A stretch of DNA of 64,000 nt from a virus. Taxonomy: Duplodnaviria; Caudoviricetes. The DNA lies in the IMG/VR virus record IMGVR_UViG_3300042402_002715, positions 518-64,517 of that record; one strand, written 5' to 3'. The translations under genes and the position numbers were made by a program. Below are positions 27,231 through 64,000 of this stretch, piece by piece. The notes beneath the pieces are model-generated. The model did not search any database, was not told the DNA's origin, and saw nothing but the letters and a program-made list of their open reading frames with translations. Position 1 is the stretch's first letter. Every line of letters starts with the position of its first letter.

Positions 27231-27314
27231 TTTTAATTTTTTTTAGCTTTATTTTTATTTATGTATTGTATAAATATACTTTACTTTTGAAAAAGTTAAT
27301 TTTTCGTTTATTTT

Positions 27315-47784: not shown

Positions 47785-47813
47785 TATATTTGTATTTATA
47801 TATAGTTCTTTGA
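47785..47813 (+). promoter_or_regulatory. -7 promoter element and boxA-like motif upstream of tmRNA
   Basis: TATATTTG at 47785-92; GTTCTTTGA at 47805-13. Confidence 0.6.
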
Positions 47814-47819
47814 TAATAT

Positions 47820-48209
47820 GGGGGTGTTTTTGGATTTGACAGGTATTGGCTGAGGAATAAGGGCATGTAGGGACTGAATTAATCTCTTTAAAAACTGATT
47901 CACAAAACAACTGGCAATGTGCTAAACAAAATGGAAACTCTTGGATTAGTAAGAGGTTCTGAAGTTACTGTAGCTTAATTAGATACGGAAACGGGGGGTC
48001 GGCAGACATATAACCTAGCAACAGAAGTCGTAGCTTGATAGAGCACACCGGATGGCTCTTTAAATCCGATTCGGGACCATTGGTTGTTGATTTACGATGG
48101 TGAAGAACAAATCAAATATTTTGGGGTATTAGAAAATACCAACCTAAACATGTAGTCCTTATCTGACAGGATATTATGGACGAGGGTTCGAGTCCCTCCA
48201 CCTCCACCA
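47820..48209 (+). ncRNA. ssrA: tmRNA
   Basis: GGGGGTG/CACCTCC acceptor with G3-U70, T arm GAGGG-TTCGAGT-CCCTC, ACCA 3' end, GATTTGAC in the 5' part; tag ORF 47913-47978 GNVLNKMETLGLVRGSEVTVA*. Confidence 0.95.
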
Positions 48210-52496: not shown

Positions 52497-53362
52497 GGTT
52501 GAGATTACACCTGTGTTTGAGAACCTTTGGAAGGATTATTGTTTCCCTTCGTATCCACTTTCTTTTGGAAAGTATTTCTCAGTGACGGTCTTTTAGGTTT
52601 ACCACTCCTTTAGGTTTGAATTACTCTCATCTTACTTGACTCTTTCCGAGGATGCCTCCCCAGTTCGTCCTTGCGGGACTAAAGGTTTTTCGGATAATTA
52701 CACTCAGACTTGGGATCCTTGTGTGCAATGAACGGCTCATTACTATGTAGTCACCTTTCATCCAAACCTGACAGACACTTTTCCTTTTTGTTGTTAATAA
52801 TTTAGTTTTATTACTTTCCATAAAGTAGTTGTGTTGTGGATTATCAAAGTAGTGGTCTGTCAACCGAGCCAATTCATCTTTTGAACGAATCGATACTCAA
52901 CTACTCTGTGAAATGTCCCCATTTCCATATTTCTAGACTACTTCGAGATCGAACCCTTGGTAGGGGACGGTCAAGGTTAGTAACAACACCACTTGTACAC
53001 TAACATACCTTTCGGTTTTAAGTATCCTATCATAATGGAACACGCAATGATAAAATTGGATAATCTTATTTTTTGCAATATCCCTACGGGTTATTCCTAT
53101 TGGTGTTCCCACCTCAATCAAACGACCCACATCGCCCAATCATCTAACCACTTTCCCTACAGCGTTGCCCTCGGTACTAAAGATTAAACGGTATCCCGCT
53201 TGTGTACTCAAGTTCAGTTACCTAAACCGCAAATAAGTTAACACAACTTACTCACTTTATCCTGGTTTCCCAGTTTATTTTATGGACTATACACGGCCCA
53301 ATATCTTTATCAGTTTTGGTTTTAAATCCTAAGATTTTAACCTACTCCTGAACGGATAATCT
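52497..53362 (-). ncRNA. Large structured ncRNA (~870 nt), GOLLD-like
   Basis: No credible ORF, GC well above flanks, many hairpins incl. CTGG-GAAA-CCAG, ACC-GAAA-GGT, CC-GCAA-GG, TTTAG-GTAA-CTGAA; own promoter and boxA; size and tRNA-proximal phage context fit GOLLD. Confidence 0.65.
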
Positions 53363-53368
53363 AAATTT

Positions 53369-53412
53369 TCAAAGAACGTTTTCGGTCATTTCCGAATTGT
53401 TTTACAAAGTTA
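53369..53412 (-). promoter_or_regulatory. -7 promoter element and boxA-like motif for the large ncRNA
   Basis: TAACTTTG at 53412-05; GTTCTTTGA at 53377-69. Confidence 0.65.
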
Positions 53413-55129: not shown

Positions 55130-55828
55130 TTACAACATTGCACCATGTGATTTTTTGTGATGTCCACCACTATTACCAATAGGAATTGTAACACCAGCCT
55201 TAAGTTGTCCGCCTTGGTTGAAATACCCAGTATTTACAGAATGACTATCATGAGATTGGTGTGGCATTTTCATTCCCATACTCAAACCGATATTTTTGTT
55301 TCCAATATGTGCATGAGTACCAACACCTAATTCTTCTGGAGTACCTTTTTTATCAAATACAATATCCGCATGAAATTTATCATTTCCAACTCCAAATTCC
55401 CAACCTTTAATTGTTTGGTTGTCAATTTTATCTTTTTCTGGTTTAAAAGACAATTCAATATGTTTTGAAAGTTCTGGTAAAAATTCAGCGGTATTTATTT
55501 TTTGTTTAAGAACATTTATATCAGGTATTTTTGCAACATAGTTTGGATTTGCCATTATTGAATTTAGAACCTGTTGATTTTTTGATGTATCTGTAAGATC
55601 TATTTGATTTGTACTTATTAAGGTTTGCAAATCTACTGGTTTATCACTCACAGGCAATGGTTGTGTTGCCGGTAGGGGTTGTTGAGGTGTTGTTTGTGTT
55701 GCCGGAGGTGTTGTTTGTGTTGCCGGAGGTGTTGTTGGGTCCTCGGCCTCCATTAAAAATTTGTTATTAATATACCTTTGTTCGGATATTAAATTTGCTT
55801 CTTGTATATATCTTCTTTTTGTTGACAT
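55130..55828 (-). CDS. Hypothetical protein with TTPPATQ repeats
   Basis: 232-aa ORF; KRRYIQEANLISEQ N-terminus. Confidence 0.6.
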   Translation of the reverse strand: MSTKRRYIQEANLISEQRYINNKFLMEAEDPTTPPATQTTPPATQTTPQQPLPATQPLPVSDKPVDLQTLISTNQIDLTDTSKNQQVLNSIMANPNYVAKIPDINVLKQKINTAEFLPELSKHIELSFKPEKDKIDNQTIKGWEFGVGNDKFHADIVFDKKGTPEELGVGTHAHIGNKNIGLSMGMKMPHQSHDSHSVNTGYFNQGGQLKAGVTIPIGNSGGHHKKSHGAML

Positions 55829-55892
55829 TTTTTTAGTATTTTAAATAGTTAAAACCCCACCTAAGAAGATGGGGTTAATAATTTTAAATAAA

Positions 55893-56060
55893 TTATTTTT
55901 TAGTAATTACAGACCAAATAGCACCTGCTAAAGTCATTGCACCACCGATAATTTCAGTAACGGTACTTTCATCAATCCATCCTTTCATTACAACGATACC
56001 ACCAACAAATGTTAATGTGTGTCTAACAATTCCTAAAACTTGTTCTTTCGTTAACTTCAT
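55893..56060 (-). CDS. Putative holin (55 aa, two TM segments)
   Basis: MKLTKEQVLGIVRHTLTFVGGIVV..IIGGAMTLAGAIWSVITKK*; late motif at 56093-100; near the amidase. Confidence 0.65.
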   Translation of the reverse strand: MKLTKEQVLGIVRHTLTFVGGIVVMKGWIDESTVTEIIGGAMTLAGAIWSVITKK

Positions 56061-56124
56061 TTTTTTTGTATTTAACGTTTATTTGTTTTTATATAAATAC
56101 AAAAAGATATGAAAAAATGTCAAT

Positions 56125-56214
56125 TTAGATATTATCTTCTTTATGTGTAAGGTAAGAAACGACAACAATTCCTAAGATTGCTATGGGTACTAAACAAGCT
56201 ACAATTACTTCCAT
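56125..56214 (-). CDS. Single-TM micropeptide (29 aa)
   Basis: MEVIVACLVPIAILGIVVVSYLTHKEDNI*; late-type motif at 56231. Confidence 0.45.
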   Translation of the reverse strand: MEVIVACLVPIAILGIVVVSYLTHKEDNI

Positions 56215-56322
56215 GATATATGTTTTTTTAATAAATACAAATACAAAATACGTTCCAATATGGTAGATGAATAGAACTATGTTATAGATTATTATTCACC
56301 GATTTTAAACCAACGTTTTTAG

Positions 56323-56405
56323 ATGTCAGGGTGGGATTTGAACCCACAATGAGCAGCCTTCCTCAACGGAAGGATTCGGCACCGATGCTTTTTACACTCC
56401 TGACA
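56323..56405 (-). ncRNA. Aberrant tRNA-like RNA
   Basis: TGTCAGG/CCTGACA acceptor and GTGGG-TTCAAAT-CCCAC T arm; irregular D region; CCTTCC-GTTGA-GGAAGG hairpin without U33. Confidence 0.55.
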
Positions 56406-56490
56406 AACAACGACTCTTCAACTTTCTACTCCCAGCACCGAGGAATTGTATATAACTTAGCCCATCTCACCGCTGTGTGGGAACTGAAGT

Positions 56491-56553
56491 TTATCGTCTT
56501 TTTCTTATGACAAACATAAATAATATAAATAATACTAACAATACTGGTGTCAT
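56491..56553 (-). CDS. Hydrophobic micropeptide (20 aa)
   Basis: MTPVLLVLFILFMFVIRKRR* with an A/T-rich initiation region. Confidence 0.45.
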   Translation of the reverse strand: MTPVLLVLFILFMFVIRKRR

Positions 56554-56737
56554 AATTTTTAATTTTAAAAAAGGTGGAGATTTGCACCAACATATGATCA
56601 CCCACATGTCTCGTTTCTTTTGTTTTTGGTACTCCACCATTGTAAGTTTCCCTTTTATATCTTACACCACCATTCACGAGATATCCCGAATTCTCCAACG
56701 GTTGTTACTCTACTACCAGGAATCAAGCAACCGATTG

Positions 56738-56839
56738 TAGTCAGGACAGGATTTGAGCCTGTATAATTAGCTTACGATTATCTAATTACCCACTTTTACA
56801 AGCAGTTCGGGGTTGCGTCTACCATTCCGCCACCTGACT
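56738..56839 (-). ncRNA. Aberrant tRNA-like RNA with Leu-type D arm (102 nt)
   Basis: AGTCAGG/CCTGACT acceptor, GCGGAATGGTAGACGC D arm, enlarged anticodon arm containing CTTGTAA, long variable arm, T loop CTCAAAT. Confidence 0.65.
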
Positions 56840-56845
56840 ATATTT

Positions 56846-56921
56846 TGGCGGCTCCAACGGGACTCGAACCCGTACCACACGCCGTGACAGGGCGGTATTG
56901 TAGCCATTCAACCATGGAGCC
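56846..56921 (-). tRNA. tRNA-Asp(GTC)
   Basis: Cloverleaf; loop CT-GTC-AC; encoded CCA. Confidence 0.92.
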
Positions 56922-56930
56922 AAAATTTTG

Positions 56931-57002
56931 TAGTCTGTACGGGAATCGAACCCGTGACTTCGCCGTGAAAGGGCGACGACTTAACCCCTTGTCGAACAGA
57001 CC
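56931..57002 (-). tRNA. tRNA-Glu(TTC)
   Basis: Cloverleaf; TCGCC-CTTTCAC-GGCGA. Confidence 0.92.
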
Positions 57003-57019
57003 ATTTTAATTTAGTTTTA

Positions 57020-57051
57020 CAAAGATAGTTAGTTTATTTTAATCTACCAAA
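57020..57051 (-). promoter_or_regulatory. Bacteroidota promoter module (repeated at 58138-58169 and 58564-58595)
   Basis: TTTGGTAGATT..(20-nt spacer)..TAnnTTTG in three near-identical copies. Confidence 0.7.
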
Positions 57052-57192
57052 TCTTTTTTTAAGTTTTTTCTTTAATGTTTTTACAAAATCAGATTTAAAA
57101 TTAGTTTTAACAAATTTTACTTTAGATGATTCTGAAGTTCCTGATAAAACCATATTTTCCATCATTTATTCTTTTTACTCGTTTATTTTTTG

Positions 57193-57265
57193 AGCGGAAG
57201 AAGGGACTCGAACCCTCAACCACCTGCTTGGAAGGCAGGAGCTCTACCAATTGAGCTACTTCCGC
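57193..57265 (-). tRNA. tRNA-Gly(TCC)
   Basis: GCGGAAG acceptor; CCTGC-CTTCCAA-GCAGG. Confidence 0.95.
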
Positions 57266-57271
57266 TTATTG

Positions 57272-57352
57272 TACTGACGGTTGGACTCGAACCAACGTTT
57301 TAAACTTACCGCTACAGGCATAGATGATATAAGCATCCACTGGTACGTCAGC
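57272..57352 (-). ncRNA. D-arm-less tRNA-Ile(TAT)-like RNA
   Basis: GCTGACG/CGTCAGT acceptor, GGATG-CTTATAT-CATCT arm, canonical T arm; only ~7 nt where the D arm should be, 25-nt variable region. Confidence 0.6.
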
Positions 57353-57358
57353 ATTTAG

Positions 57359-57432
57359 TTGCGTCGTTCTGGAATCGAACCAGATTTATGAGGCTTATGA
57401 GACCCCCCCAGATACCAACCTGTCCACTCGCA
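57359..57432 (-). tRNA. tRNA-Met(CAT), irregular acceptor stem
   Basis: GGGGT-CTCATAA-GCCTC; T arm TCTGG-TTCGATT-CCAGA. Confidence 0.75.
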
Positions 57433-57437
57433 ATATG

Positions 57438-57543
57438 TAGTCAAAGAAGGAGTCGAACCTTCACGAGATAAGTGTGAAAATCACCTTACCCCAAGGAGTT
57501 TTGAGTATTATCTCCCAGCGTCTACCAATTCCGCCACTTGACT
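57438..57543 (-). ncRNA. Aberrant tRNA-Leu(CAA)-like RNA (106 nt)
   Basis: AGTCAAG/TTTGACT acceptor, Leu-type D arm, 13-nt anticodon loop ATAATA-CTCAAAA, ~31-nt variable arm, normal T arm. Confidence 0.65.
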
Positions 57544-57779
57544 GTTTTGAGGTTGAGAGCCTCAGTGTTGTTATGACGTAGTTAATCACACTCCTACTGT
57601 ATTCCTTTCTCAAGGGAACAACACAATTTTACTGTAGTTTAGTAGTTGACTCAAACTCTCGTTTCACCATCTTGAGTCAACAGGTTAATGCACTTTACGA
57701 GTTTCCCGTTTCTTACAACCACAATATTTTCCAATATTTCAAAGAATCCTTTTCCTTATTTGTTTAACAAAGATATGTA

Positions 57780-58117
57780 TTATTTTGTATTAATTATTTT
57801 ATATTTTCTTCCTTCTTTTTTTAATGTACCAACAAGGTCTTCTTTATAGTCAATTCCACTCCAAAAACCAGATCCGTCTGACCAAACACCTTTTTTATTG
57901 TTTTTATAAACCATATCACCTTCAAATGTAATGTATTCAGGTTGGTCATTTTTAGTCAAAGCATATGCTCTTGTCATTTCTCTATTCTCAGATGGTGAAT
58001 AATTACCTAACCAATCTTGTCTGCATAAAAATGTTGCTTGTCCAACAATAACTTCTTGCCCATCAAGAATAACTTTTTTGTTGAATTTTTTTTAAATGTA
58101 TAAATGTAAGTACCCAT
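57780..58117 (-). pseudogene. Hypothetical gene interrupted by a frameshift in an A8 tract
   Basis: MGTYIYTFKK then frame change at TTT-A8-TTC (58093-86); one extra A joins it to the 57977-57780 ORF. Confidence 0.55.
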
Positions 58118-58156
58118 ATGTTTTTTTATTTGTTTTACAAAGATATGTATTTTATT

Positions 58157-58273
58157 TCAATCTACCAAATCTTTTTTAAACTTTTCTTTTCTTGTATATT
58201 TCTTTTTATTACGATACACATTTGGCCTTGTTGTCATCATAATCTCCTGATATGTAATCTCAATTGTTTTCAT
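58157..58273 (-). CDS. Small basic protein (38 aa), ArfA-like motif
   Basis: MKTIEITYQEIMMTTRPNVYRNKKKYTRKEKFKKDLVD*. Confidence 0.5.
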   Translation of the reverse strand: MKTIEITYQEIMMTTRPNVYRNKKKYTRKEKFKKDLVD

Positions 58274-58559
58274 CGTTATATAATCTTTGAACGTGTTTAA
58301 TTATTTTATTTATATCTTCTTCTGTTTGGTAAGCTAGTACATCATTTGTTATTTCTGTATCATAACAAATCTCCCACTGATTTTTTGTTCCTTTTAAAAT
58401 TGCAACCTCCCAAGTATTATCATCTGTATATGAATAAAACCCACTTGGTGTTAAAAATCTAACAGCAGATAAACCATAACCACCAGGAAAAAAAATTAAT
58501 CCTTGTTGTCCATGCCCAGATTTATGTGGTTCAAATTCTATATCCTTAAATGTTATCAT
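58260..58559 (-). CDS. Hypothetical phage protein
   Basis: 99-aa ORF, FPGGYGLSAV..WEVAILK; -7 element at 58564-71. Confidence 0.7.
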   Translation of the reverse strand: MITFKDIEFEPHKSGHGQQGLIFFPGGYGLSAVRFLTPSGFYSYTDDNTWEVAILKGTKNQWEICYDTEITNDVLAYQTEEDINKIIKHVQRLYNDENN

Positions 58560-58598
58560 AAAACAAAAGTATAAATAATTTTTTAATCTACCAAATTT

Positions 58599-58636
58599 TC
58601 AAAGAACAAAAAAACCCCTCTTTTTTAGAGAGGGGC
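58599..58636 (-). terminator. Attenuator terminator followed directly by boxA-like motif
   Basis: CCCCTCT-CTAAAAA-AGAGGGG-T7 then GTTCTTTGA (58607-599). Confidence 0.75.
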
Positions 58637-58662
58637 TTCAAAATTTTTATATGTATAAAATC

Positions 58663-58731
58663 TTACACCCTCTCCTTAAAAGAATCCTCAGCTAAATCGC
58701 CTCCTATCAATGATATGTGTAAATTTTTCAT
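58663..58731 (-). CDS. Putative leader peptide (22 aa) of the attenuator for tRNA cluster 2
   Basis: MKNLHISLIGGDLAEDSFKERV*; late motif at 58752-59; final codons GAGAGGG complementary to terminator arm CCCTCTC. Confidence 0.6.
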   Translation of the reverse strand: MKNLHISLIGGDLAEDSFKERV

Positions 58732-58790
58732 TTGCGGTTTTTTATTTTGATATAAATATAGTAATAATTTTAAAAGTGTCAAGTTTTATT

Positions 58791-59297
58791 TTAATCTTCG
58801 ATGCTATCAAGTAATTCAACAACCTCATCAACTGATTTTTCTAACACTTTTATATTTTTTATTGTGGCATCATCTTCAGCAAAATCTTCTAAATCTCTAA
58901 CTTTATCATAAGCAGATTCCAAGTCATTTAATAATCCATTAAGATCAATATCATAATCTTCAAAATCACTTTTATGAAGTTTGACACCTTTTTCATTATA
59001 AGACCTAACCAATTGTTTAAGAACACTTAATGTTTTTTTCATTTTGATAAAATCATCCATTAAATCTTCAGCTACTTTATATTGGCCGTGTTCAAAAGAA
59101 TCTCCTTTTATCATTGTTTTTAATTTACCAAATGCAATCATCATTCTACCAACACCATTAAATATTGCCATTGAAATATTGTTTGCGGTTTTTCTAACTT
59201 TCAAATCTTTTTTTACGTTTGGGTAACCATCTTCATTAATTACACGTTTAACAATTCTTGTTAAGTCTGATTCTGTTAATCTTATTATTCTTTTCAT
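58791..59297 (-). CDS. Hypothetical protein, probable internal head protein
   Basis: MKRIIRLTESDLTRIVKRVINE N-terminus; late motif at 59316-23. Confidence 0.65.
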   Translation of the reverse strand: MKRIIRLTESDLTRIVKRVINEDGYPNVKKDLKVRKTANNISMAIFNGVGRMMIAFGKLKTMIKGDSFEHGQYKVAEDLMDDFIKMKKTLSVLKQLVRSYNEKGVKLHKSDFEDYDIDLNGLLNDLESAYDKVRDLEDFAEDDATIKNIKVLEKSVDEVVELLDSIED

Positions 59298-59343
59298 AAT
59301 TTTTATATTTTATTAATAAATATATAGATGATTAAAAAAGTTG

Positions 59344-59417
59344 TACCCCCAGCAGGACTCGAACCTGCAAAAATGTGAGCCTAAATCACACTCGTATACC
59401 AATTCCGACATAGAGGC
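59344..59417 (-). tRNA. tRNA-Leu(TAG) lacking the long variable arm
   Basis: TGTGA-TTTAGGC-TCACA; variable region only TTTTT. Confidence 0.8.
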
Positions 59418-59426
59418 ATTTTGTTG

Positions 59427-59498
59427 AGGTCCTAATTGGAATCAAACCAATCTAACCGGTTTTGCAGACCGGTGCCTAAGTCTCTCGGCCATAGGACC
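59427..59498 (-). tRNA. tRNA-Cys(GCA)
   Basis: CCGGT-CTGCAAA-ACCGG; U73 discriminator. Confidence 0.88.
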
Positions 59499-59503
59499 AT
59501 ATA

Positions 59504-59959
59504 TTAACGGCAGTGGTAATCTGCCGCTTTTGTTGCAATTTGATTATGGGGTTTTATATTTGTTTTATATCCCAAGGATGTCGCCCACCCAACAGCTGGT
59601 TGAACCAGTTTTGAACTAAAGTGTTTTTCATCACTATTAAAGTCCAAATCAATTTCAACTTTTACTTTTACTTTCTGGGTTAACCATTCGGCAACCTCAA
59701 TTGAATAATCGGCCTCATTCCAAAGACGTGTCCATTTATCTTTTATTTTTTTCACTTTTTGTTTGTGAAGAATATAATGAACACCCCTATTTCCATACCT
59801 ATATGCTATTACCGTAACATACACGGTACTTCTTCTGTGGTTTTGTGAGTCAGTCCCAATGTGGACTTCCACCCAGGGACATTCTTTTAGAACACCCAAA
59901 GTGTGATTAACCACATCTGGTATTGCAACACCATTAACCGTTCTAAAAACTCTGTTCAT
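59504..59959 (-). CDS. RNase H-like YkuK/DUF458 family protein
   Basis: IGTDSQN, RLWNEA..SIEVA, EIDLDFN..FSS, IKP..ATKAAD. Confidence 0.8.
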   Translation of the reverse strand: MNRVFRTVNGVAIPDVVNHTLGVLKECPWVEVHIGTDSQNHRRSTVYVTVIAYRYGNRGVHYILHKQKVKKIKDKWTRLWNEADYSIEVAEWLTQKVKVKVEIDLDFNSDEKHFSSKLVQPAVGWATSLGYKTNIKPHNQIATKAADYHCR

Positions 59960-59981
59960 TTTAGTTAATTTTAATTGTTTG

Positions 59982-60054
59982 TGGACAGGGAGGGTGTCGA
60001 ACCCCCGACTCCAGGATCTTCAATCCTGAGCTCTACCAACTGAGCTACCTGTCC
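59982..60054 (-). tRNA. tRNA-Phe(GAA)
   Basis: CAGGA-TTGAAGA-TCCTG cloverleaf. Confidence 0.93.
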
Positions 60055-60063
60055 TTATTTTTG

Positions 60064-60134
60064 CACGTGGTGTAGGGATCGAACCTACCCGGCGAGGTTT
60101 TGGAGACCTGCCCGACGCCCTGTCTGTACCACGT
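60064..60134 (-). tRNA. tRNA-Trp(CCA)
   Basis: AGGT-CTCCAAA-ACCT; ACGTGGT/ACCACGT acceptor; G73. Confidence 0.85.
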
Positions 60135-60172
60135 AAATTTGCCCGACCTAGCTCGGGACCGACATCGGATAT

Positions 60173-61027
60173 TCATATACTATCTAACCAAGAATTACCA
60201 AGTTTAACATAATCTTCATTTATCTCATATCCCTCAAAATTACATTCTAAAGTTTTTGAAACAACACATTCACTTCCAGATCCTGCAAATATAATTAAAA
60301 CATTTGGTTTTAATTCTTTTGGTATTGAGGATTTTATTAATTTTTCGGTTAAAGATAATGGTTTTTGTGTTGGGTGTACAATTATTTTATGATTTTCGTG
60401 ACTCTTTTTTTCTTTTGGTTCACAAAAAATGTTACAAGTATCACAATAAAAATACCTTTCTTTTGCACCCGATCCTCCAGCTAATGATGGTATTTTTATT
60501 ACATCCCTTGGTAATGCGCCATTTTCGTTTGCATTATAAATTGTTTCTTTATCACCAAATCTCCCTTTAGTTGCCTTTCTTTTTTTTCCTGCGGCATTCT
60601 TAATAAAACTTTCAGTATAATCTTCTCTAACATCATCCAAATTAAAATTTACAGTTTCACCTTTCCAAACATGGATTATTGATTCGTGACTTCTTTGCCA
60701 AAATTTATAGTGTGGGACCGTTTTATTTGTATAATGCCAGACTAACCATTTTTTTGTTTCATACTTAATATTAACAAATATATGTGCTAAAATCTCACTA
60801 AAACCATAAATAAAAATAGAACCACCAGGTTTTAATACTCTATATGATTCAATAAACCATTCATTACACCAATCCAAATAATCCTTTAATGTTCTTTTAT
60901 CTGAATCATTACCAAAATCTTTACCTATATTATATGGTGGATCTATAATGATTGTATCAATTGTATTGTCTTCTTTTTTTTTTAATTCGATTATACAGTC
61001 AACATTTAATATTTTGTTTTTTAACAT
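60173..61027 (-). CDS. N6-adenine/N4-cytosine DNA methyltransferase (beta class)
   Basis: DPPY, HPTQKP, FAGSGS; small CxxC..H..H insert. Confidence 0.9.
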   Translation of the reverse strand: MLKNKILNVDCIIELKKKEDNTIDTIIIDPPYNIGKDFGNDSDKRTLKDYLDWCNEWFIESYRVLKPGGSIFIYGFSEILAHIFVNIKYETKKWLVWHYTNKTVPHYKFWQRSHESIIHVWKGETVNFNLDDVREDYTESFIKNAAGKKRKATKGRFGDKETIYNANENGALPRDVIKIPSLAGGSGAKERYFYCDTCNIFCEPKEKKSHENHKIIVHPTQKPLSLTEKLIKSSIPKELKPNVLIIFAGSGSECVVSKTLECNFEGYEINEDYVKLGNSWLDSI

Positions 61028-61611
61028 ATCGTTATTTTTTTTACAAAATTTATTAATGATAAATCAACCTCAACCCATAGTTGGTGTGACATTGATTTAG
61101 TTATTTTACATTTAATTTTACCATCTTTACTTATACCCTCCCAACCAGAAACTCTATTTTTATATTTACCTTTTTTTCCTATTGTTTCTATCCATTTGAA
61201 ATTTTTATAATCAAAAATTTCTTTATTAATATAATTTATAAAATAATTTTTATCCCAAATTTCACTATCATTTCTAGATAAAAATAAAAAACTATCATAA
61301 TTAACGTTTTCCAAAAAATCTAATTTTTCCTCAATTGTTTCAAATCTACCAAGCCTATGTGATGAAAAAATTAATTTATTATCTTTTATTGTTCCGGTTT
61401 TTAGTTGTGGTAAAAATTTATTATTATCTAATTCAAAATTTAAATCGTGACCAGTACTATGGTTAAATGCGGTATACTTAGAATTTTCTTTGTTCATTAC
61501 TTGGTCTACTAAATCTTCCCAAGCTTCTGCCTTTACTGGTATTCTATAAATTTGGTGGTGTTGATATAACTTAGTTTCAATAAGTGATAAGATCTCTTCG
61601 TTAAATTTCAT
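61021..61611 (-). CDS. Putative restriction endonuclease-like protein (PD-(D/E)xK-like)
   Basis: WE..HSTGHD..QLK pattern; overlaps the MTase start; true start ATG 61611 (longer ORF would run through tRNA-Arg); own -33/-7 promoter at 61646-16. Confidence 0.45.
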   Translation of the reverse strand: MKFNEEILSLIETKLYQHHQIYRIPVKAEAWEDLVDQVMNKENSKYTAFNHSTGHDLNFELDNNKFLPQLKTGTIKDNKLIFSSHRLGRFETIEEKLDFLENVNYDSFLFLSRNDSEIWDKNYFINYINKEIFDYKNFKWIETIGKKGKYKNRVSGWEGISKDGKIKCKITKSMSHQLWVEVDLSLINFVKKITIC

Positions 61612-61653
61612 AATACAAATGTAATTAAAATTTTTTAAATGACAAACTAATTG

Positions 61654-61726
61654 TACCCCCTCAGAGACTCGAACTCCGACCTGACACCTTAGAAGAGTGT
61701 TGTACTTCCAATTATACGAAAGGGGC
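61654..61726 (-). tRNA. tRNA-Arg(TCT)
   Basis: ACACT-CTTCTAA-GGTGT cloverleaf. Confidence 0.9.
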
Positions 61727-61730
61727 AAAT

Positions 61731-61895
61731 AAAAGATGATGAACAACTTTATCAGGAATCCCGTCCTCAGACTTCACACACCATTAGAGAGCTGGGTTGT
61801 TACATCAACACAATTAAGATTGAATACCTATCCTTAGTGTGTACCCTTGCGAACACCTCTCCGTGTCCGTTGTTCTACGCCTTTTATCATCTTTT
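61731..61895 (-). ncRNA. Orphan rod-shaped structured RNA (~165 nt)
   Basis: Nested pairings AAAAGATGAT/ATCATCTTTT, GAACAAC/GTTGTTC, GGAGAG/CTCTCT, GGGT/ACCC, ACACA/TGTGT. Confidence 0.55.
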
Positions 61896-61896
61896 G

Positions 61897-61968
61897 TACC
61901 TTCGGAGAGGGTCGAACTCCCAATCATCAGATTCGTATTCTGAGGCTTTTCCATTAAGCTACGAAGGT
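61897..61968 (-). tRNA. tRNA-Arg(ACG)
   Basis: TCAGA-ATACGAA-TCTGA cloverleaf. Confidence 0.9.
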
Positions 61969-61974
61969 ATATTG

Positions 61975-62048
61975 TGTGTATGATGGGTCACGATCCCATG
62001 GCCTCCACTTTCACAGAGTGGCACTCTACCAACTGAGCTACATACACC
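61975..62048 (-). tRNA. tRNA-His(GTG)
   Basis: CCACT-CTGTGAA-AGTGG; G-1 present; T loop ATCGTGA. Confidence 0.85.
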
Positions 62049-62054
62049 ATGTTG

Positions 62055-62123
62055 TCCCGTATGTTGGACTTGAACCAACCTCAAGTCGGATATGAACCAA
62101 CTTTGATCCCTGATCATACGGGA
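62055..62123 (-). tRNA. tRNA-Met/Ile2(CAT) with minimal D loop
   Basis: AAGTTGG-TTCATAT-CCGACTT; D arm GATC-AGG-GATC; canonical T arm. Confidence 0.65.
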
Positions 62124-62127
62124 GTTG

Positions 62128-62216
62128 AGGAAAGCAGTGGTAACGATCCACAATCGGAGTCTCACCGATCGCAATGCTTAGCAGGCATGCCCCGTCGCCT
62201 TCAGGGATTACTTTCC
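62128..62216 (-). tRNA. tRNA-Ser(GCT)
   Basis: ATGC-CTGCTAA-GCAT; long variable arm; T loop ATCGTTA. Confidence 0.85.
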
Positions 62217-62221
62217 ATTTG

Positions 62222-62294
62222 TGCTCATCACCGGTTACGATCCGATTCTCTCCACGATATCAGCGTGGTGCTTTCCCGATTAAGCTAGATGAGC
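62222..62294 (-). tRNA. tRNA-Ile(GAT)
   Basis: CCACG-CTGATAT-CGTGG; T loop ATCGTAA. Confidence 0.88.
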
Positions 62295-62455
62295 TGGTAC
62301 GTATTTAGGGGTATTTCTTAACCACCCCCTCAGCTCGTCAGCATCTCGGTGGTCGATACTTTAGTCACAGCGAACCCAACTGCTGTTTCTTACTAGATGC
62401 TCGCGGCCTACTTACTCGAGACGTTACCACTACGGGGAACCCAACATTGTATCTT

Positions 62456-62533
62456 TGGCGGACCAGGTAGGACTCGAACCTACTATCCCTCGCTTAACAG
62501 GCGAAAGCTTATAACCACTTAAGCTTCTGGTCC
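62456..62533 (-). tRNA. tRNA-Asn(GTT)
   Basis: TTCGC-CTGTTAA-GCGAG; encoded CCA. Confidence 0.92.
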
Positions 62534-62537
62534 AGTG

Positions 62538-62618
62538 TGGAAGTGGTAGGGGTCGAACCTACACGCCTTTCGGACTTGATTTACAGTCAAGCGAGCCAGC
62601 CAAATGCTCAACACTTCC
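62538..62618 (-). tRNA. tRNA-Tyr(GTA)
   Basis: CTTGA-CTGTAAA-TCAAG; variable arm CC-GAAA-GG. Confidence 0.9.
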
Positions 62619-62624
62619 TTATTG

Positions 62625-62695
62625 TACCTCAAGATGGATTTGAACCACCACCGATAGTTTGTAATACTACCACGCTCCGATTACGCCATTAGGGC
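62625..62695 (-). tRNA. tRNA-Val(TAC)
   Basis: GTAGT-ATTACAA-ACTAT; one mismatch in the acceptor stem. Confidence 0.75.
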
Positions 62696-62756
62696 CTTTG
62701 TTTCTACAAAGATAATATTTTTTTTTAATTCTTCAGACATTGACTGAATTTTTTTG

Positions 62757-62830
62757 TGTCCCCGGTGAGACTCGAACTCACACTCTTTCCATTAAAAGTG
62801 GAAAGCTTTAACCAGTTAAGCTACGAGGAC
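62757..62830 (-). tRNA. tRNA-Lys(TTT)
   Basis: TTCCA-CTTTTAA-TGGAA cloverleaf. Confidence 0.93.
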
Positions 62831-62891
62831 TTTTGTTTGTTATACTTGTCACTTTCCATAACACTTGTTTTTATTTGTTTATTTTATTTAG

Positions 62892-62964
62892 TCTAAGTGA
62901 CAGGGGTCGAACCTGCGGCCTGAGCGTCCCAAACGCCCCGCTCTACCATCTGAGCTACACCTAG
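62892..62964 (-). tRNA. tRNA-Pro(TGG)
   Basis: GGGCG-TTTGGGA-CGCTC cloverleaf. Confidence 0.92.
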
Positions 62965-62972
62965 TTATTATT

Positions 62973-63061
62973 TGGAGGAAGAAGTAGGTGTCGATCCCAA
63001 TACCCGCAAAGGTACCACCCGTTTTCAAGACGGGGTCATAGGCCGCTATGATTCATCTTCC
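62973..63061 (-). tRNA. tRNA-Ser(TGA)
   Basis: CCCGT-CTTGAAA-ACGGG; long variable arm; encoded CCA; T loop ATCGACA. Confidence 0.88.
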
Positions 63062-63614
63062 TTTTATTCCAGTCAATTTTTGCTTTTATACTTAATTTTT
63101 CTTTTGTTTCTTTTGAAACGTATAATCCTTTAGTCCATCCTTTTAAAATATAAGCTTCTAGTTCTGTTTTTTTTATTTTTTTATTTACACAATCTTTATT
63201 AATCCATGTGGTACCAAATTGTGAATTTTTTTCACCAGATCCTTGTCCTTTTTTAGTGTTACTTATTTTTAACTTAATATCTTCAGAATGTGTTTTTCCG
63301 TAGAAACCATTTATTTCTAATAATTTACCACCATAACCACCTAAAGCAATATTCATACATAATTTGTCTTTCAATAAACTTTCATTTACAATTTCCTTTT
63401 CTTTATTTATTAGTAAATCCCTGTTTGGGAAAAACTCAATTATTTCTTTTGTGTGGTTTTCAATCCCGTATTTTTTAATTGAGTTCCAAAGTTTTTTTCC
63501 AGACCCCATATATCCATCTTCTAAATTATCTGTCGAATGTATTCCGACATAAAATTTATTTGTTACACTACAAATAATTTTATAAATGTAGTGATGTTTT
63601 TTTTCTACTACCAT
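63036..63614 (-). mobile_element. Free-standing GIY-YIG homing endonuclease (Seg-like, NUMOD3)
   Basis: YIYKII...FYVGIH..Y.GSG, FYGKTHSEDIKLKIS; start ATG 63614; inserted between tRNA-Gln and tRNA-Ser. Confidence 0.85.
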
Positions 63615-63658
63615 AATTAAAATATGTTTTTTATAATAGTTTATGTTCCAATTTATTG

Positions 63659-63729
63659 TTGTTCCCCAAGGACTCGAACCTCGATTCCACGGACCAAAAC
63701 CGCGTGTCCTGCCATTAGACGAGGGAACA
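63659..63729 (-). tRNA. tRNA-Gln(TTG)
   Basis: CGCGG-TTTTGGT-CCGTG; T1-A72. Confidence 0.92.
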
Positions 63730-63745
63730 TTATAAGGCCAATATG

Positions 63746-63754
63746 TCAAAGAAC
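63746..63754 (-). promoter_or_regulatory. boxA-like antitermination motif
   Basis: GTTCTTTGA near the head of tRNA cluster 1. Confidence 0.55.
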
Positions 63755-63770
63755 TTTTTCTTTTTGTTTG

Positions 63771-63843
63771 AGGTTTCTATCAGGGTCGAACTGATGACTC
63801 CGGGTTACAAAGCCGGGATATTACCAAACTATACTAAGAAACC
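63771..63843 (-). tRNA. tRNA-Thr(TGT)
   Basis: CCGG-C-TTTGTAA-C-CCGG; GGTTTCT/AGAAACC acceptor. Confidence 0.85.
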
Positions 63844-63853
63844 AATATAAAAC

Positions 63854-63881
63854 AAAAAACCCAAGGTTTGTTGCCTTGGGT
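63854..63881 (-). terminator. Attenuator terminator upstream of tRNA cluster 1
   Basis: ACCCAAGG-CAACAAA-CCTTGGGT-TTTTT, 10 nt before tRNA-Thr. Confidence 0.75.
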
Positions 63882-63914
63882 CTTATATTCCTTTATTATG
63901 TAGGTTAATCGTTA

Positions 63915-64000
63915 TTAACTCATAAATGAAAATGCCCTAGACTGTTTAAGCGTGTTATAGCAGAACGACCACTGATTGCTCGGTTGCTTGCTAATGACCA
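63915..64000 (-). CDS. Putative leader peptide of the attenuator for tRNA cluster 1 (5' end beyond window)
   Basis: ...VISKQPSNQWSFCYNTLKQSRAFSFMS-TAA-TAA; GTCTAGGG (63942-35) complementary to terminator arm CCCAAGGC with one mismatch. Confidence 0.5.
   Translation of the reverse strand, partial: VISKQPSNQWSFCYNTLKQSRAFSFMS

What the first reader, a model, noticed from the sequence alone, without database searches (positions are those of the whole stretch)
58599..58760. Leader-peptide attenuator whose codons mirror the downstream tRNA cluster (candidate tRNA-shortage sensor)
Seen (minus strand): late-type motif TATATTTATA, then a 22-codon ORF MKNLHISLIGGDLAEDSFKERV*, then terminator CCCCTCT-7nt-AGAGGGG-T7, then boxA-like GTTCTTTGA. 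The last leader codons (GGAGAGGG) are complementary to the terminator 5' arm (CCCTCTCT), giving a mutually exclusive antiterminator that a ribosome reaching the stop codon would cover. The leader core TTG ATA GGA GGC GAT TTA GCT GAG GAT matches, nearly in order, the tRNAs downstream: Leu(CAA)-like, Met, Ile(TAT)-like, Gly(TCC), Glu(TTC), Asp(GTC). Established: amino-acid biosynthesis attenuators use this geometry, and some host defences cleave tRNAs. Inference: stalling on a depleted tRNA switches on transcription of the phage's replacement tRNAs. I know of no description of this for phage tRNA arrays. Caveat: three small ORFs and internal host-type promoters lie between the attenuator and the tRNAs.
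Basis: partly seen in the sequence, partly recalled or inferred. Interest (0 to 1): 0.9.

Follow-up and report, generated by a model that had tools for sequence, protein, structure and literature searches.

The report
Leader-peptide attenuator in phage tRNA array
Inside this phage's block of tRNA genes sits a tiny translated "test" gene followed by a switchable transcription stop signal, a design that most likely lets the phage make more tRNAs only when ribosomes read the matching codons slowly, and which I could not find described for tRNA genes.

Summary
On the minus strand lie a promoter (58782..58751), a 22-codon ORF (58731..58663), an intrinsic terminator (58639..58608) and a GTTCTTTGA motif.

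The cassette is conserved in 47 of 50 IMG/VR loci fetched by a 19-nt pattern, while its flanks differ.
- The ORF stays open in 36 of 36 distinct copies. Both other frames carry stops in all 36.
- The proposed antiterminator (ORF end with the terminator 5' arm) is paired in 95.8% of cells. Four pairs change on both sides, and 0 of 500 shuffles do as well.

In 22 of 36 usable contexts the next gene is tRNA-Leu(UAA). The window copy has lost that tRNA by a deletion, so a 99-aa ORF with its own promoter now follows.

Seven leader cassettes of the same design were examined, including a second one at the window's end. Each is enriched in codons read by its own downstream tRNAs (Fisher p about 1e-7, post hoc). 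The window's leader alone is not significant (p 0.05-0.23).

Best reading: a ribosome-mediated attenuator gating a tRNA sub-operon. No expression data exist, and four literature searches found no description. This scan has noted the same class before on other DNA.

The parts
58751..58782 (-). Promoter of the cassette ('P*'): TTGACAC, 15 nt, TATATTTATA. It also fits the Bacteroidota layout (TTG, 19 nt, TAnnTTTa).
   Evidence: Best sigma-70-like site of the region, 11 of 12. Nearly invariant in 36 distinct copies. A similar box precedes a protein gene at 27295..27269.
58732..58750 (-). A-rich 5' untranslated stretch without a Shine-Dalgarno sequence.
   Evidence: Sequence; conserved in A2. The transcription start was not mapped.
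58663..58731 (-). Leader ORF of 22 codons plus TAA: MKNLHISLIGGDLAEDSFKERV.
   Evidence: Open in 36 of 36 distinct copies as 22 or 24 codons, with indels in multiples of 3. Frames +1 and +2 have stops in 36 of 36. pN/pS is 0.44 and 0.66.
58703..58731 (-). Region 1: the start of the ORF (codons 1-10, core TTACAC). It can pair with region 2 and the stop-codon stretch.
   Evidence: Terminator-enforced fold. A 1:2 pairing is in the MFE of 33 of 36 copies, though not of the window's own. It is 95.4% paired in the 24-codon group but shows no two-sided change.
58668..58675 (-). Region 2: GGAGAGGG, codons 19-22, ending 2 nt before the stop.
   Evidence: Pairs with region 3. On 36 sequences 95.8% of cells are paired, 4 of 8 pairs change on both sides, 0 of 500 shuffles reach this, and slid controls give 46-68%.
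58640..58665 (-). A+U-rich spacer that can form its own 9-bp hairpin and stack under the 2:3 helix.
   Evidence: Folds.
58627..58635 (-). Region 3: terminator 5' arm CCCCTCTCT, shared by the antiterminator and the terminator.
58608..58621 (-). Region 4: terminator 3' arm AGAGGGG followed by T7.
   Evidence: The 3:4 helix is 99.6% paired with one C-G to A-U swap in 16 of 36 sequences. Hairpin energy is -13.0 kcal/mol.
58591..58607 (-). GTTCTTTGAAAATTTGG: a recurring motif that precedes stable-RNA genes (boxA-like by resemblance only).
   Evidence: The pattern has 5 sites in the window against 0.41 expected, and 0 of 100 shuffles reach 5. In relatives it lies 5-12 nt before tRNA-Leu(taa).
58564..58595 (-). 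Bacteroidota-type promoter (TTTG, 20 nt, TACTTTTG) of the 99-aa ORF. It is fused to the motif above by the deletion that removed tRNA-Leu(taa).
   Evidence: 12 sites against 5.64 expected. Comparison with L003. The motif repeats at 58169..58138 and 57051..57020.
58260..58559 (-). 99-aa ORF of unknown function (phrog_4074), now the first gene after the terminator.
56846..57543 (-). Downstream tRNA block: a tRNA-like RNA at 57543..57438, then Gly(tcc) 57265..57192, Glu(ttc) 57002..56930 and Asp(gtc) 56921..56846.
   Evidence: No other minus-strand terminator was found between 58608 and 55500.
63856..63998 (-). Second cassette at the head of the array: the 3' part of a leader ORF (cut by the contig end) and a terminator 10-11 nt before tRNA-Thr.
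   Evidence: The full 35-codon leader MKTNLRHMVISKQPSNQWSFCYNTL.PSRAFSFMS is seen in relatives.

Best explanation
This is a ribosome-mediated (leader-peptide) transcription attenuator inside a phage tRNA array.

Transcripts start at the promoter at 58782..58751 and a ribosome translates the 22-codon leader.
- If decoding is fast, the ribosome reaches the stop codon and covers GGAGAGGG (region 2). The terminator (regions 3:4) then forms and the transcript ends at the T7 tract.
- If the ribosome stalls with its A site on about codons 4-13 (Leu UUA/UUG, Ile AUA, Gly, Asp), region 2 is free. It pairs with the terminator 5' arm, and RNA polymerase reads on into the next genes.
- Without any translation, region 1 pairs with region 2 and termination is again expected.

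The leader therefore reports how well the cell decodes the codons served by the tRNAs that follow, and it raises their transcription when supply is short. This is negative feedback on tRNA supply.

In most relatives the first gene behind the terminator is tRNA-Leu(UAA). In this window that tRNA has been deleted, so read-through now enters three small ORFs and reaches the Leu-like/Gly/Glu/Asp tRNA block about 1.1 kb further on. That block also has promoters of its own.

Shown here: the anatomy, its conservation, covariation of the 2:3 and 3:4 helices, ORF maintenance and class-wide codon matching. Inferred: translation, stalling, read-through and the direction of regulation.
For: Conservation as a unit:
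- A 19-nt pattern found 50 IMG/VR loci, and 47 carry the cassette.
- Blastn identity is 79-96% while both flanks diverge.

Translation signature:
- The frame is open in 36 of 36 distinct copies (22 or 24 codons).
- Both other frames have stops in 36 of 36.
- pN/pS is 0.44 and 0.66, that is weak constraint on the peptide.

Switch:
- The 2:3 helix is 95.8% paired, against 46-68% for slid controls. It has 4 pairs with changes on both sides, including G-C to G-U to A-U and G-C to U-A series. No shuffle of 500 reaches this.
- The 3:4 helix is 99.6% paired.
- A 1:2 pairing is in the MFE of 33 of 36 copies.
- With a ribosome footprint imposed, A-site codons 4-13 give the antiterminator (8 of 8 pairs). 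Codon 16 or the stop gives the terminator (7 of 7 pairs).
- The two conformations are near-isoenergetic, at -31.2 and -32.5 kcal/mol.

Target:
- Of 36 usable distinct contexts, 12 have tRNA-Leu(taa) 25-31 nt after the T tract with no promoter between. Another 10 have it 83-109 nt after.
- The only two minus-strand terminator sites in 55500-64000 are the two that follow leader ORFs.

Same design elsewhere:
- Cassettes with unrelated leader and arm sequences keep the ORF-end-to-arm complementarity. Shuffles doing as well: F5 2 of 500, F6 6 of 500, F7 4 of 500.

Codon matching:
- In 7 of 7 cassettes the leader is enriched for codons read by its own downstream tRNAs and depleted for the other set of the same phage.
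- Fisher combined p is 1e-7 under strict or permissive wobble.
Against: - There is no expression evidence. Only assembled contigs of RNA libraries were available, and the one that covers the cassette also covers the promoter.
- The codon match of this window's leader alone is not significant (p 0.05-0.23).
- Its first codons (Lys, Asn, His) are served by tRNAs of the upstream block.
- The codon test was designed after I had seen the pattern. I defined the tRNA sets, some sets are cut by locus ends, and Ile(tat) in the F1 set is borrowed from sister loci.
- In 10 of 36 contexts a promoter lies between terminator and tRNA-Leu. In 14 of 36, the window included, another gene follows.
- In the window three Bacteroidota-type promoters lie between the attenuator and the tRNAs, so the attenuator cannot be their only control.
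- The 1:2 helix has no two-sided change and is not in the window's own MFE.
- Some copies have poor 2:3 complementarity. F1 E-type is matched by 107 of 500 shuffles and F3 by 166 of 500. Recombinants L039, L077 and L081 mix arm types.
- The antiterminator closes a 32-nt spacer, whereas the terminator loop is 7 nt. Strand displacement could therefore favour termination regardless.
Confidence: 0.62

Rival explanations
1. It is an attenuator that senses translation in general (ribosome availability, or coupling of ribosome and polymerase) and not particular tRNAs. The leader's codon content would be irrelevant in this cassette.
For: The window's leader alone is not significantly matched to its tRNAs. 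There are no runs of one codon as in his or leu leaders. The peptide is weakly constrained. The structural switch is supported independently of codon identity.
Against: Seven of 7 cassettes are enriched for their own tRNA set and depleted for the other set. The head-of-array leader uses amino acids of its 15-17 downstream tRNAs and has no Gly, Asp or Glu. This leader has them and lacks Gln, Pro, Thr, Tyr, Trp and Cys.
Confidence: 0.15
2. It is a self-contained small gene: a roughly 125-nt transcript made from its own promoter and ended by its own terminator. It would act as a small RNA or encode a 22-24-aa peptide with a function of its own. The pairing of ORF end and terminator arm would serve RNA stability or translational control, and nearness to tRNAs would be synteny only.
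For: The unit keeps its own promoter and terminator and is conserved whatever follows it. That includes 14 of 36 contexts with no tRNA next and 10 of 36 with a separate promoter for the tRNA. The first six codons are invariant, partly because of how the copies were found. The terminated RNA would accumulate in any case.
Against: The C-terminal half of the peptide varies freely. No family was found in Rfam. Unrelated leaders keep the same geometry of stop codon, region 2 and terminator arm. Codon matching to downstream tRNAs has no reason under this reading.
Confidence: 0.15
3. It is an ordinary terminator of the upstream 168-aa gene plus a chance ORF and a chance promoter-like site.
For: AT-rich DNA gives many promoter-like sites (42 found against 34.3 expected). 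A 22-codon open frame has roughly a one-in-six chance in such DNA (my estimate).
Against: The upstream gene differs between relatives while the cassette is kept at 79-96% identity. The ORF is open in 36 of 36 copies with 3-nt indels. There is covariation between ORF end and terminator arm.
Confidence: 0.03

Closest known systems
Multivalent leader-peptide attenuators of enterobacterial amino-acid operons (thr, ilvGMEDA, ilvBN, leu; also trp, his, phe). Named from my own knowledge, no call.
   Same: A promoter-proximal short ORF, an intrinsic terminator, and an antiterminator that shares the terminator's 5' arm. There is also a possible 1:2 pairing over the ORF. Several different sensing codons occur in one leader, and stalling would favour read-through.
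   Different: The genes behind the terminator are tRNA genes (and small phage ORFs), not biosynthetic enzymes. The stop codon lies inside or just after region 2, not between regions 1 and 2. There is no run of one codon, so the leader looks like a list of codons for the tRNAs that follow. The element is phage-borne and in a probable Bacteroidota setting without Shine-Dalgarno sequences.
pheST leader (pheM) attenuator of phenylalanyl-tRNA synthetase in E. coli (recalled)
   Same: Leader-peptide attenuation applied to a component of the decoding apparatus, giving feedback from decoding speed to supply.
   Different: It controls a synthetase and one amino acid. Here the product would be the tRNAs themselves, for several amino acids.
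T-box leaders (recalled; Rfam families exist)
   Same: tRNA status decides between terminator and antiterminator in a 5' leader.
   Different: T-boxes bind uncharged tRNA directly, are 200-300 nt long, are not translated and control synthetase or amino-acid genes. No Rfam family, T-box included, matched 58560-58800 at E up to 1. Here an ORF is maintained.
boxA/Nus antitermination sites of rRNA operons (recalled)
   Same: GTTCTTTGA resembles the boxA core and stands between promoters and stable-RNA genes at 5 sites in the window.
   Different: The resemblance is the only evidence; binding of Nus factors was not tested. The motif lies after the attenuator's terminator, so it cannot be what overrides that terminator.

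Membership tests
Leader-peptide (ribosome-mediated) transcription attenuator | Short ORF with a start codon close to the transcription start, maintained in relatives | tested here: met
   A 22- or 24-codon ORF is open in 36 of 36 distinct copies, and the other frames are closed in 36 of 36. The start of transcription is inferred from the promoter only.
Leader-peptide (ribosome-mediated) transcription attenuator | Intrinsic terminator between the leader ORF and the controlled genes | tested here: met
   The stem is at 58639..58611 followed by T7. The helix is 99.6% paired across 36 copies. tRNA-Leu(taa) lies 25-31 nt behind it in 12 of 36 contexts.
Leader-peptide (ribosome-mediated) transcription attenuator | Antiterminator pairing that excludes the terminator and is masked by a ribosome at the end of the ORF | tested here: met
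   95.8% of cells are paired, 4 pairs change on both sides and 0 of 500 shuffles match. Region 2 ends 2 nt before the stop.
Leader-peptide (ribosome-mediated) transcription attenuator | Anti-antiterminator (1:2) pairing, so that untranslated RNA terminates | tested here: inconclusive
   It is in the MFE of 33 of 36 copies, but not the window's. It is 95.4% paired but has no two-sided change, and shuffles do as well.
Leader-peptide (ribosome-mediated) transcription attenuator | Sensing codons cognate to what the operon supplies | tested here: inconclusive
   For this leader alone the match is 5, 8 or 10 of 21 codons with p = 0.23, 0.07 or 0.047, depending on the tRNA set. For the class, 7 of 7 cassettes are enriched, with Fisher p = 1e-7 in a post hoc test.
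Leader-peptide (ribosome-mediated) transcription attenuator | Read-through that depends on leader translation and on stalling | not testable with these tools
   Only contigs of RNA libraries were on hand.
T-box leader | Match to the T-box covariance model (stem I, specifier loop, T-box sequence) | tested here: not met
   No Rfam family matched at 58560-58800 at E up to 1.
boxA (Nus-dependent antitermination site) | Conserved boxA sequence downstream of promoters of stable-RNA operons, bound by NusB/NusE | tested here: inconclusive
   The motif recurs at 5 sites before stable-RNA genes against 0.41 expected and before tRNA-Leu in relatives. Similarity to boxA is recalled, and binding is not testable here.

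The most novel reading that the evidence does not exclude
Large phages of probable Bacteroidota hosts split their tRNA arrays into sub-operons. Each is gated by a translated 'checklist' leader written in the codons that its own tRNAs read. The phage would thus measure, codon by codon, whether the infected cell can decode its genes. It would switch on exactly the tRNA block that is short, whether the shortage comes from a mismatch of codon usage with the current host or from host nucleases that cut tRNAs. That would be the first case of tRNA genes regulated by leader-peptide attenuation, and a built-in sensor of tRNA depletion.
Probability: 0.5. Interest if true: 0.85.

Novelty: new variant of a known kind. 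Interest (0 to 1): 0.77.

Why it matters
Why phages carry tRNA genes has long been debated. The usual answers are codon compensation or replacement of tRNAs destroyed by host defences. I saw the title and abstract start of PMC10264068 and PMC11555353 in search listings. In PMC10264068 I also searched the text for attenuat, leader, terminator and promoter, and found none.

An attenuator that reads the supply of the same tRNAs it controls would show three things. Phages regulate these genes by need. The array is organised into functional blocks. The relevant signal is decoding speed.

It would also extend leader-peptide attenuation from amino-acid supply to tRNA supply. It would give a simple, testable cis element for building tRNA-responsive reporters in Bacteroidota.

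Tried and rejected
- INPHARED phages, distant blastn of 56500-60200: 360 records matched. The 20 listed cover at most 4% of the query. Those with annotation lie on tRNA genes; H1 and H9 have none. There is no cultured relative.
- Rfam at E up to 1: no family hit on the cassette.
- Genome-contig scan with a 21-nt pattern: 2 hits, both without the cassette's promoter, terminator or nearby tRNAs (L111 at a probable gene start, L112 inside an open frame). This gives no host clue.
- RNA libraries: 9 runs hold 5-13% of the words, all as contigs. I laid 4 of the 9 (X3, X6, X8, X1). One 223-nt contig of X3 covers 58590-58787 and then runs on unlike the window. It also covers the promoter, so it shows neither a start, an end nor read-through.
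- Covariation of leader codons with tRNA content inside family 1. For example, E-type leaders have two Ala codons and a tRNA-Ala(tgc) downstream. However, A- and C-type leaders also have one or two Ala codons without that tRNA. No clear pattern emerged.
- 'Codons in the same order as the tRNAs': not seen in the other cassettes.
- Rows left out of the codon test:
  - a hairpin before tRNA-Ala in L030;
  - hairpins before tRNA-Asp in L037 and L100, which follow G+C-rich structured RNA or are weak and have no leader ORF;
  - P*-type promoters in L085, L096 and L070 that lead into ordinary protein genes.
- L034, L052 and L062 are chance matches.
- L071 (cut by the locus end), L073 (terminator deleted), L067 and L081 (too short) were left out of the context count.
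- My 'nascent RNA' pair count used a fixed register and gave 0 of 8 for some codons where the full-length fold gave 8 of 8. I do not use it.
- Host: Bacteroidota is inferred only. The grounds are TTTG-N-TAnnTTTG sites (12 against 5.64 expected) and A-rich starts without a Shine-Dalgarno sequence. The consensus itself I know from memory, plus titles and abstract starts listed.
- Supplementary files of papers were not consulted.
- Not used: complex prediction, structure prediction and the large protein searches.
Full report
WHAT IS THERE. Read on the minus strand, the region holds these elements in order:
- the end of a 168-aa ORF (59297..58791);
- TTGACAC, 15 nt, TATATTTATA (58782..58751), the best sigma-70-like site between 55500 and 64000 at 11 of 12;
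- an A-rich leader;
- ATG at 58731 and 22 codons (MKNLHISLIGGDLAEDSFKERV) up to TAA at 58665..58663;
- a 26-nt A+U-rich spacer;
- a terminator (stem 58639..58611, then T7);
- GTTCTTTGAAAATTTGG (58607..58591);
- a Bacteroidota-type promoter (58595..58564);
- a 99-aa ORF (58559..58260).

ARAGORN finds 17 tRNA genes in the window, all on this strand. Fourteen lie upstream of the cassette and three lie downstream: Gly, Glu and Asp. Rfam adds a 106-nt tRNA-like hit at 57543..57438 and finds no family on the cassette itself. What needs correcting is the setting: the cassette is in the middle of the array.

IS IT CONSERVED? The two flanking proteins led to related IMG/VR contigs. Blastn of the intergenic stretch showed 79-96% identity from the promoter to the GTTCTTTGA motif, while the sequence on either side diverges. 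A 19-nt pattern from the ORF start found 50 loci. Of these, 47 carry the cassette and 3 are chance matches. After removing duplicates there are 36 distinct full cassettes.

IS THE ORF MAINTAINED?
- In all 36 the frame is open, with 22 codons (16 copies) or 24 codons (20 copies).
- The two length classes differ by two 3-nt indels.
- Frames +1 and +2 carry at least one stop in all 36.
- pN/pS is 0.44 and 0.66. Codons 16-21 change freely while the first six are invariant, the latter partly because of how the copies were found.

This is what one expects of a leader that must be translated but whose peptide matters little. It argues against a micro-protein with a conserved sequence.

THE SWITCH.
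Slid controls give 46-68%.
- Four of its 8 pairs change on both sides. One runs G-C, G-U, A-U; another swaps G-C (14 sequences) for U-A (19 sequences).
- None of 500 shuffles reaches the observed values.
- The terminator itself is 99.6% paired, with one C-G to A-U swap.
- There are exceptions. L039, L077 and L081 look like recombinants that combine one type of ORF end with the other type of terminator.
- The E-type copies pair poorly; 107 of 500 shuffles do as well.

In 33 of 36 copies the minimum-energy fold pairs the start of the ORF (region 1) with its end and the stop codon (region 2). This makes a four-region layout like the trp attenuator. That helix is 95.4% paired in the 24-codon group. 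It varies only by one-sided changes, and shuffles do as well, so it is compatible but unproven. It is not in the window's own MFE.

For the window's RNA the two states are nearly equal in energy: -31.2 kcal/mol with 1:2 plus 3:4, and -32.5 with 2:3. The whole leader folds with z = -3.0. I then blocked 30 nt around the A site as a ribosome footprint. Codons 4, 6, 8, 9 and 13 give the antiterminator (8 of 8 pairs, 0 of 7 terminator pairs). Codon 16 or the stop codon gives the terminator (7 of 7 pairs). This is thermodynamic modelling, not kinetics.

WHAT DOES IT CONTROL? Of 40 distinct contexts, 36 were usable; 2 were too short and 2 lacked a terminator.
- In 12, tRNA-Leu(taa) starts 25-31 nt after the T tract, with only the GTTCTTTGA motif between. 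That leaves no room for a promoter.
- In 10, it starts 83-109 nt after, with a Bacteroidota-type promoter between.
- In 14, the window included, another gene comes next.

Comparison with L003 shows what happened in the window. L003 is 96% identical in the cassette and encodes the same peptide. The stretch from ...GAAATATTGGT through the tRNA to ...AAATTTGGT is missing in the window. The motif is therefore fused to the promoter of the 99-aa ORF. The same deletion is in L004/L055 and L005/L070, whose upstream genes differ from the window's. It is thus a lineage and not an assembly error, and the cassette has stayed intact after the loss.

In the window, read-through would cross three small ORFs. 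Promoters lie at 58595 and 58169, and a TATCTTTG box without an upstream TTTG at about 57775 (sequence). Read-through would reach the tRNA block after about 1.1 kb. No other minus-strand terminator was found on the way.

THE SAME DESIGN WITH OTHER SEQUENCES. A search with the promoter alone and a scan for terminators within 130 nt upstream of tRNAs in all fetched loci turned up further cassettes. Their leaders and terminator arms are unrelated in sequence.
- F5 in L106: the ORF end GAAGTTCAG is a perfect complement of the arm, and Asn, Gly, Gly, Asp and Thr tRNAs follow.
- F6 in L106: stands before tRNA-Val.
- F7 in L085/L096: stands before Glu, Phe, Cys, Ile, Trp, Met, Gln, His and Ser tRNAs.
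- F3 and F4 in L094.
- F2: stands at the head of the array in the window's own relatives.

The 3' part of F2 and its terminator are in the window at 63998..63856, 10-11 nt before tRNA-Thr.

Complementarity between the leader and the terminator 5' arm, as the number of 500 dinucleotide shuffles doing as well:
- 4, 5 and 6 for three F1 types;
- 2 (F5), 6 (F6) and 4 (F7);
- 11, 15, 57 and 288 for four F2 variants;
- 12 (F4);
- 166 (F3).

In F1, F5, F6 and F7 the partner lies from 20 nt before to 9 nt after the first base of the stop codon. So the geometry is well supported for four families and weak for the head-of-array type.

DO LEADER CODONS MIRROR THE tRNAs? For seven cassettes I counted the leader codons that the tRNAs between that terminator and the next cassette (or the locus end) can read. 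I compared this with 20,000 random windows of the same length from ORFs of at least 100 codons of the same phages, and with the other tRNA set of the same phage.

Under strict wobble, own-set codons against background frequency and p value:
- 26 of 34 against 0.56 (F2, p = 0.029);
- 10 of 21 against 0.31 (F1, p = 0.11);
- 22 of 39 against 0.39 (F4, p = 0.024);
- 8 of 23 against 0.28 (F3, p = 0.32);
- 18 of 27 against 0.32 (F5, p = 0.00005);
- 11 of 24 against 0.18 (F6, p = 0.017);
- 16 of 27 against 0.30 (F7, p = 0.004).

All seven are above background for their own set and below background for the other set. Fisher's combined p is 1e-7 under either wobble rule. The two leaders of the window's lineage are complementary. 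The head leader uses amino acids of the Thr...Leu(tag) block and has no Gly, Asp or Glu. The internal leader has Leu, Ile, Gly, Asp and Glu and lacks Gln, Pro, Thr, Tyr, Trp and Cys.

Caveats to this test:
- I designed it after seeing the pattern.
- I defined the sets, and some are cut by locus ends.
- Ile(tat) in the F1 set comes from sister loci.
- The background includes some non-coding frames.

For the window's own leader and tRNAs the result is weak:
- 5 of 21 (p = 0.23) with the three ARAGORN tRNAs;
- 10 of 21 (p = 0.047) adding the lost Leu(taa);
- against the 14 upstream tRNAs, 7 of 21 where 0.48 is expected.

MOST LIKELY MECHANISM. This is a ribosome-mediated attenuator. Fast decoding brings the ribosome to the stop codon, where it covers region 2, and the terminator forms. 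A stall on codons 4-13 frees region 2, which takes the terminator's 5' arm, and the polymerase reads on. The class-wide codon matching suggests that what is sensed is the supply of the very tRNAs that lie behind the terminator. That would be a feedback loop on tRNA supply.

Several promoters lie inside the blocks. The attenuator would therefore add to a basal level of expression, not act as the sole switch. The promoter of the cassette belongs to a type different from the internal ones; a similar box stands before a protein gene at 27295..27269. The two routes may thus work at different times, but 'late' is untested. The GTTCTTTGA motif marks stable-RNA units (5 sites against 0.41 expected). 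Its resemblance to boxA is recalled, not tested. I give the attenuator reading 0.62, and within it the tRNA-specific sensing about 0.5.

WHAT IS KNOWN. Leader-peptide attenuation is textbook for amino-acid operons and for pheST (recalled). Four full-text searches found no paper describing it for tRNA genes:
- leader peptide + tRNA genes + attenuation + bacteriophage;
- phage-encoded tRNA + terminator + leader;
- tRNA array + phage + attenuator;
- tRNA operon + leader peptide + transcription attenuation.

I read only listings and abstract starts. A recent paper on phage tRNAs and host defences has none of the words attenuat, leader, terminator or promoter in its text. Subscription journals and supplements were not searchable.

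Notes of this scan show that the same class was reported before on other DNA, including a homologous Leu(UUR)/Gly/Asp/Ala/Glu leader before tRNA-Leu(UAA). These are unchecked AI notes. I reached the reading from my own calls before opening them, and they are not independent evidence.

VERDICT. It is a new variant of a known kind.

Noticed in passing
window 63856-63998 (-), and L003, L007, L037, L072 and others: A second leader/terminator cassette stands at the head of the tRNA array, 10-11 nt before tRNA-Thr, and is cut by the contig end. In relatives the full leader has 34-36 codons (MKTNLRHMVISKQPSNQWSFCYNTL.PSRAFSFMS) and is preceded by two promoters. Its complementarity to the terminator arm is weaker than in the internal cassette (11 to 288 of 500 shuffles do as well).
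   Followed up: partly
window 58591-58607 against L003: tRNA-Leu(taa), which follows the terminator in most relatives, is missing in the window, L004/L055 and L005/L070. The deletion lies between two TTGGT-containing short repeats.
   Followed up: yes
window 47805-47821 (+), 53361-53377 (-), 57731-57747 (-), 58591-58607 (-), 63738-63754 (-): The motif GTTCTTTGAnATnTTGG has 5 sites against 0.41 expected. The site at 63754..63738 lies 8 nt before tRNA-Gln. In relatives the motif lies 5-12 nt before tRNA-Leu, whether or not a promoter precedes it.
   Followed up: partly
window 57272-57543 (-): There are tRNA-like sequences that ARAGORN does not call. A 106-nt Rfam tRNA hit (33.1 bits) lies at 57543..57438. 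Two further stretches lie where relatives have tRNA-Met(cat) and tRNA-Ile(tat).
   Followed up: no
window 57560-57730 (-): A conserved stretch follows a promoter and the ATTCTTTGA motif and has no convincing ORF. The same sequence is seen in L075. It may be a structured RNA.
   Followed up: no
window 59504-59959 (-): A 151-aa ORF with an RNase H-like domain (PF04308, E = 1e-24) sits between tRNA-Phe and tRNA-Cys. It is kept at that place in most relatives (orf151aa).
   Followed up: no
window 63036-63602 (-): A GIY-YIG/NUMOD3-like ORF lies between tRNA-Gln and tRNA-Pro. Both matches are weak and below Pfam's cut-offs.
   Followed up: no
L073 against L080: This natural variant of the cassette has lost the terminator and the following promoter, so the leader's stop region runs straight into the GGTTCTTTGACATATTGG motif. 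The sister locus L080 keeps both.
   Followed up: no
window 27269-27295 (-): AACTTTTT, 13 nt, GTATATTTATA stands upstream of a protein gene. It is the same promoter type as the cassette's, and distinct from the TTTGG...TATCTTTG type inside the tRNA region.
   Followed up: partly
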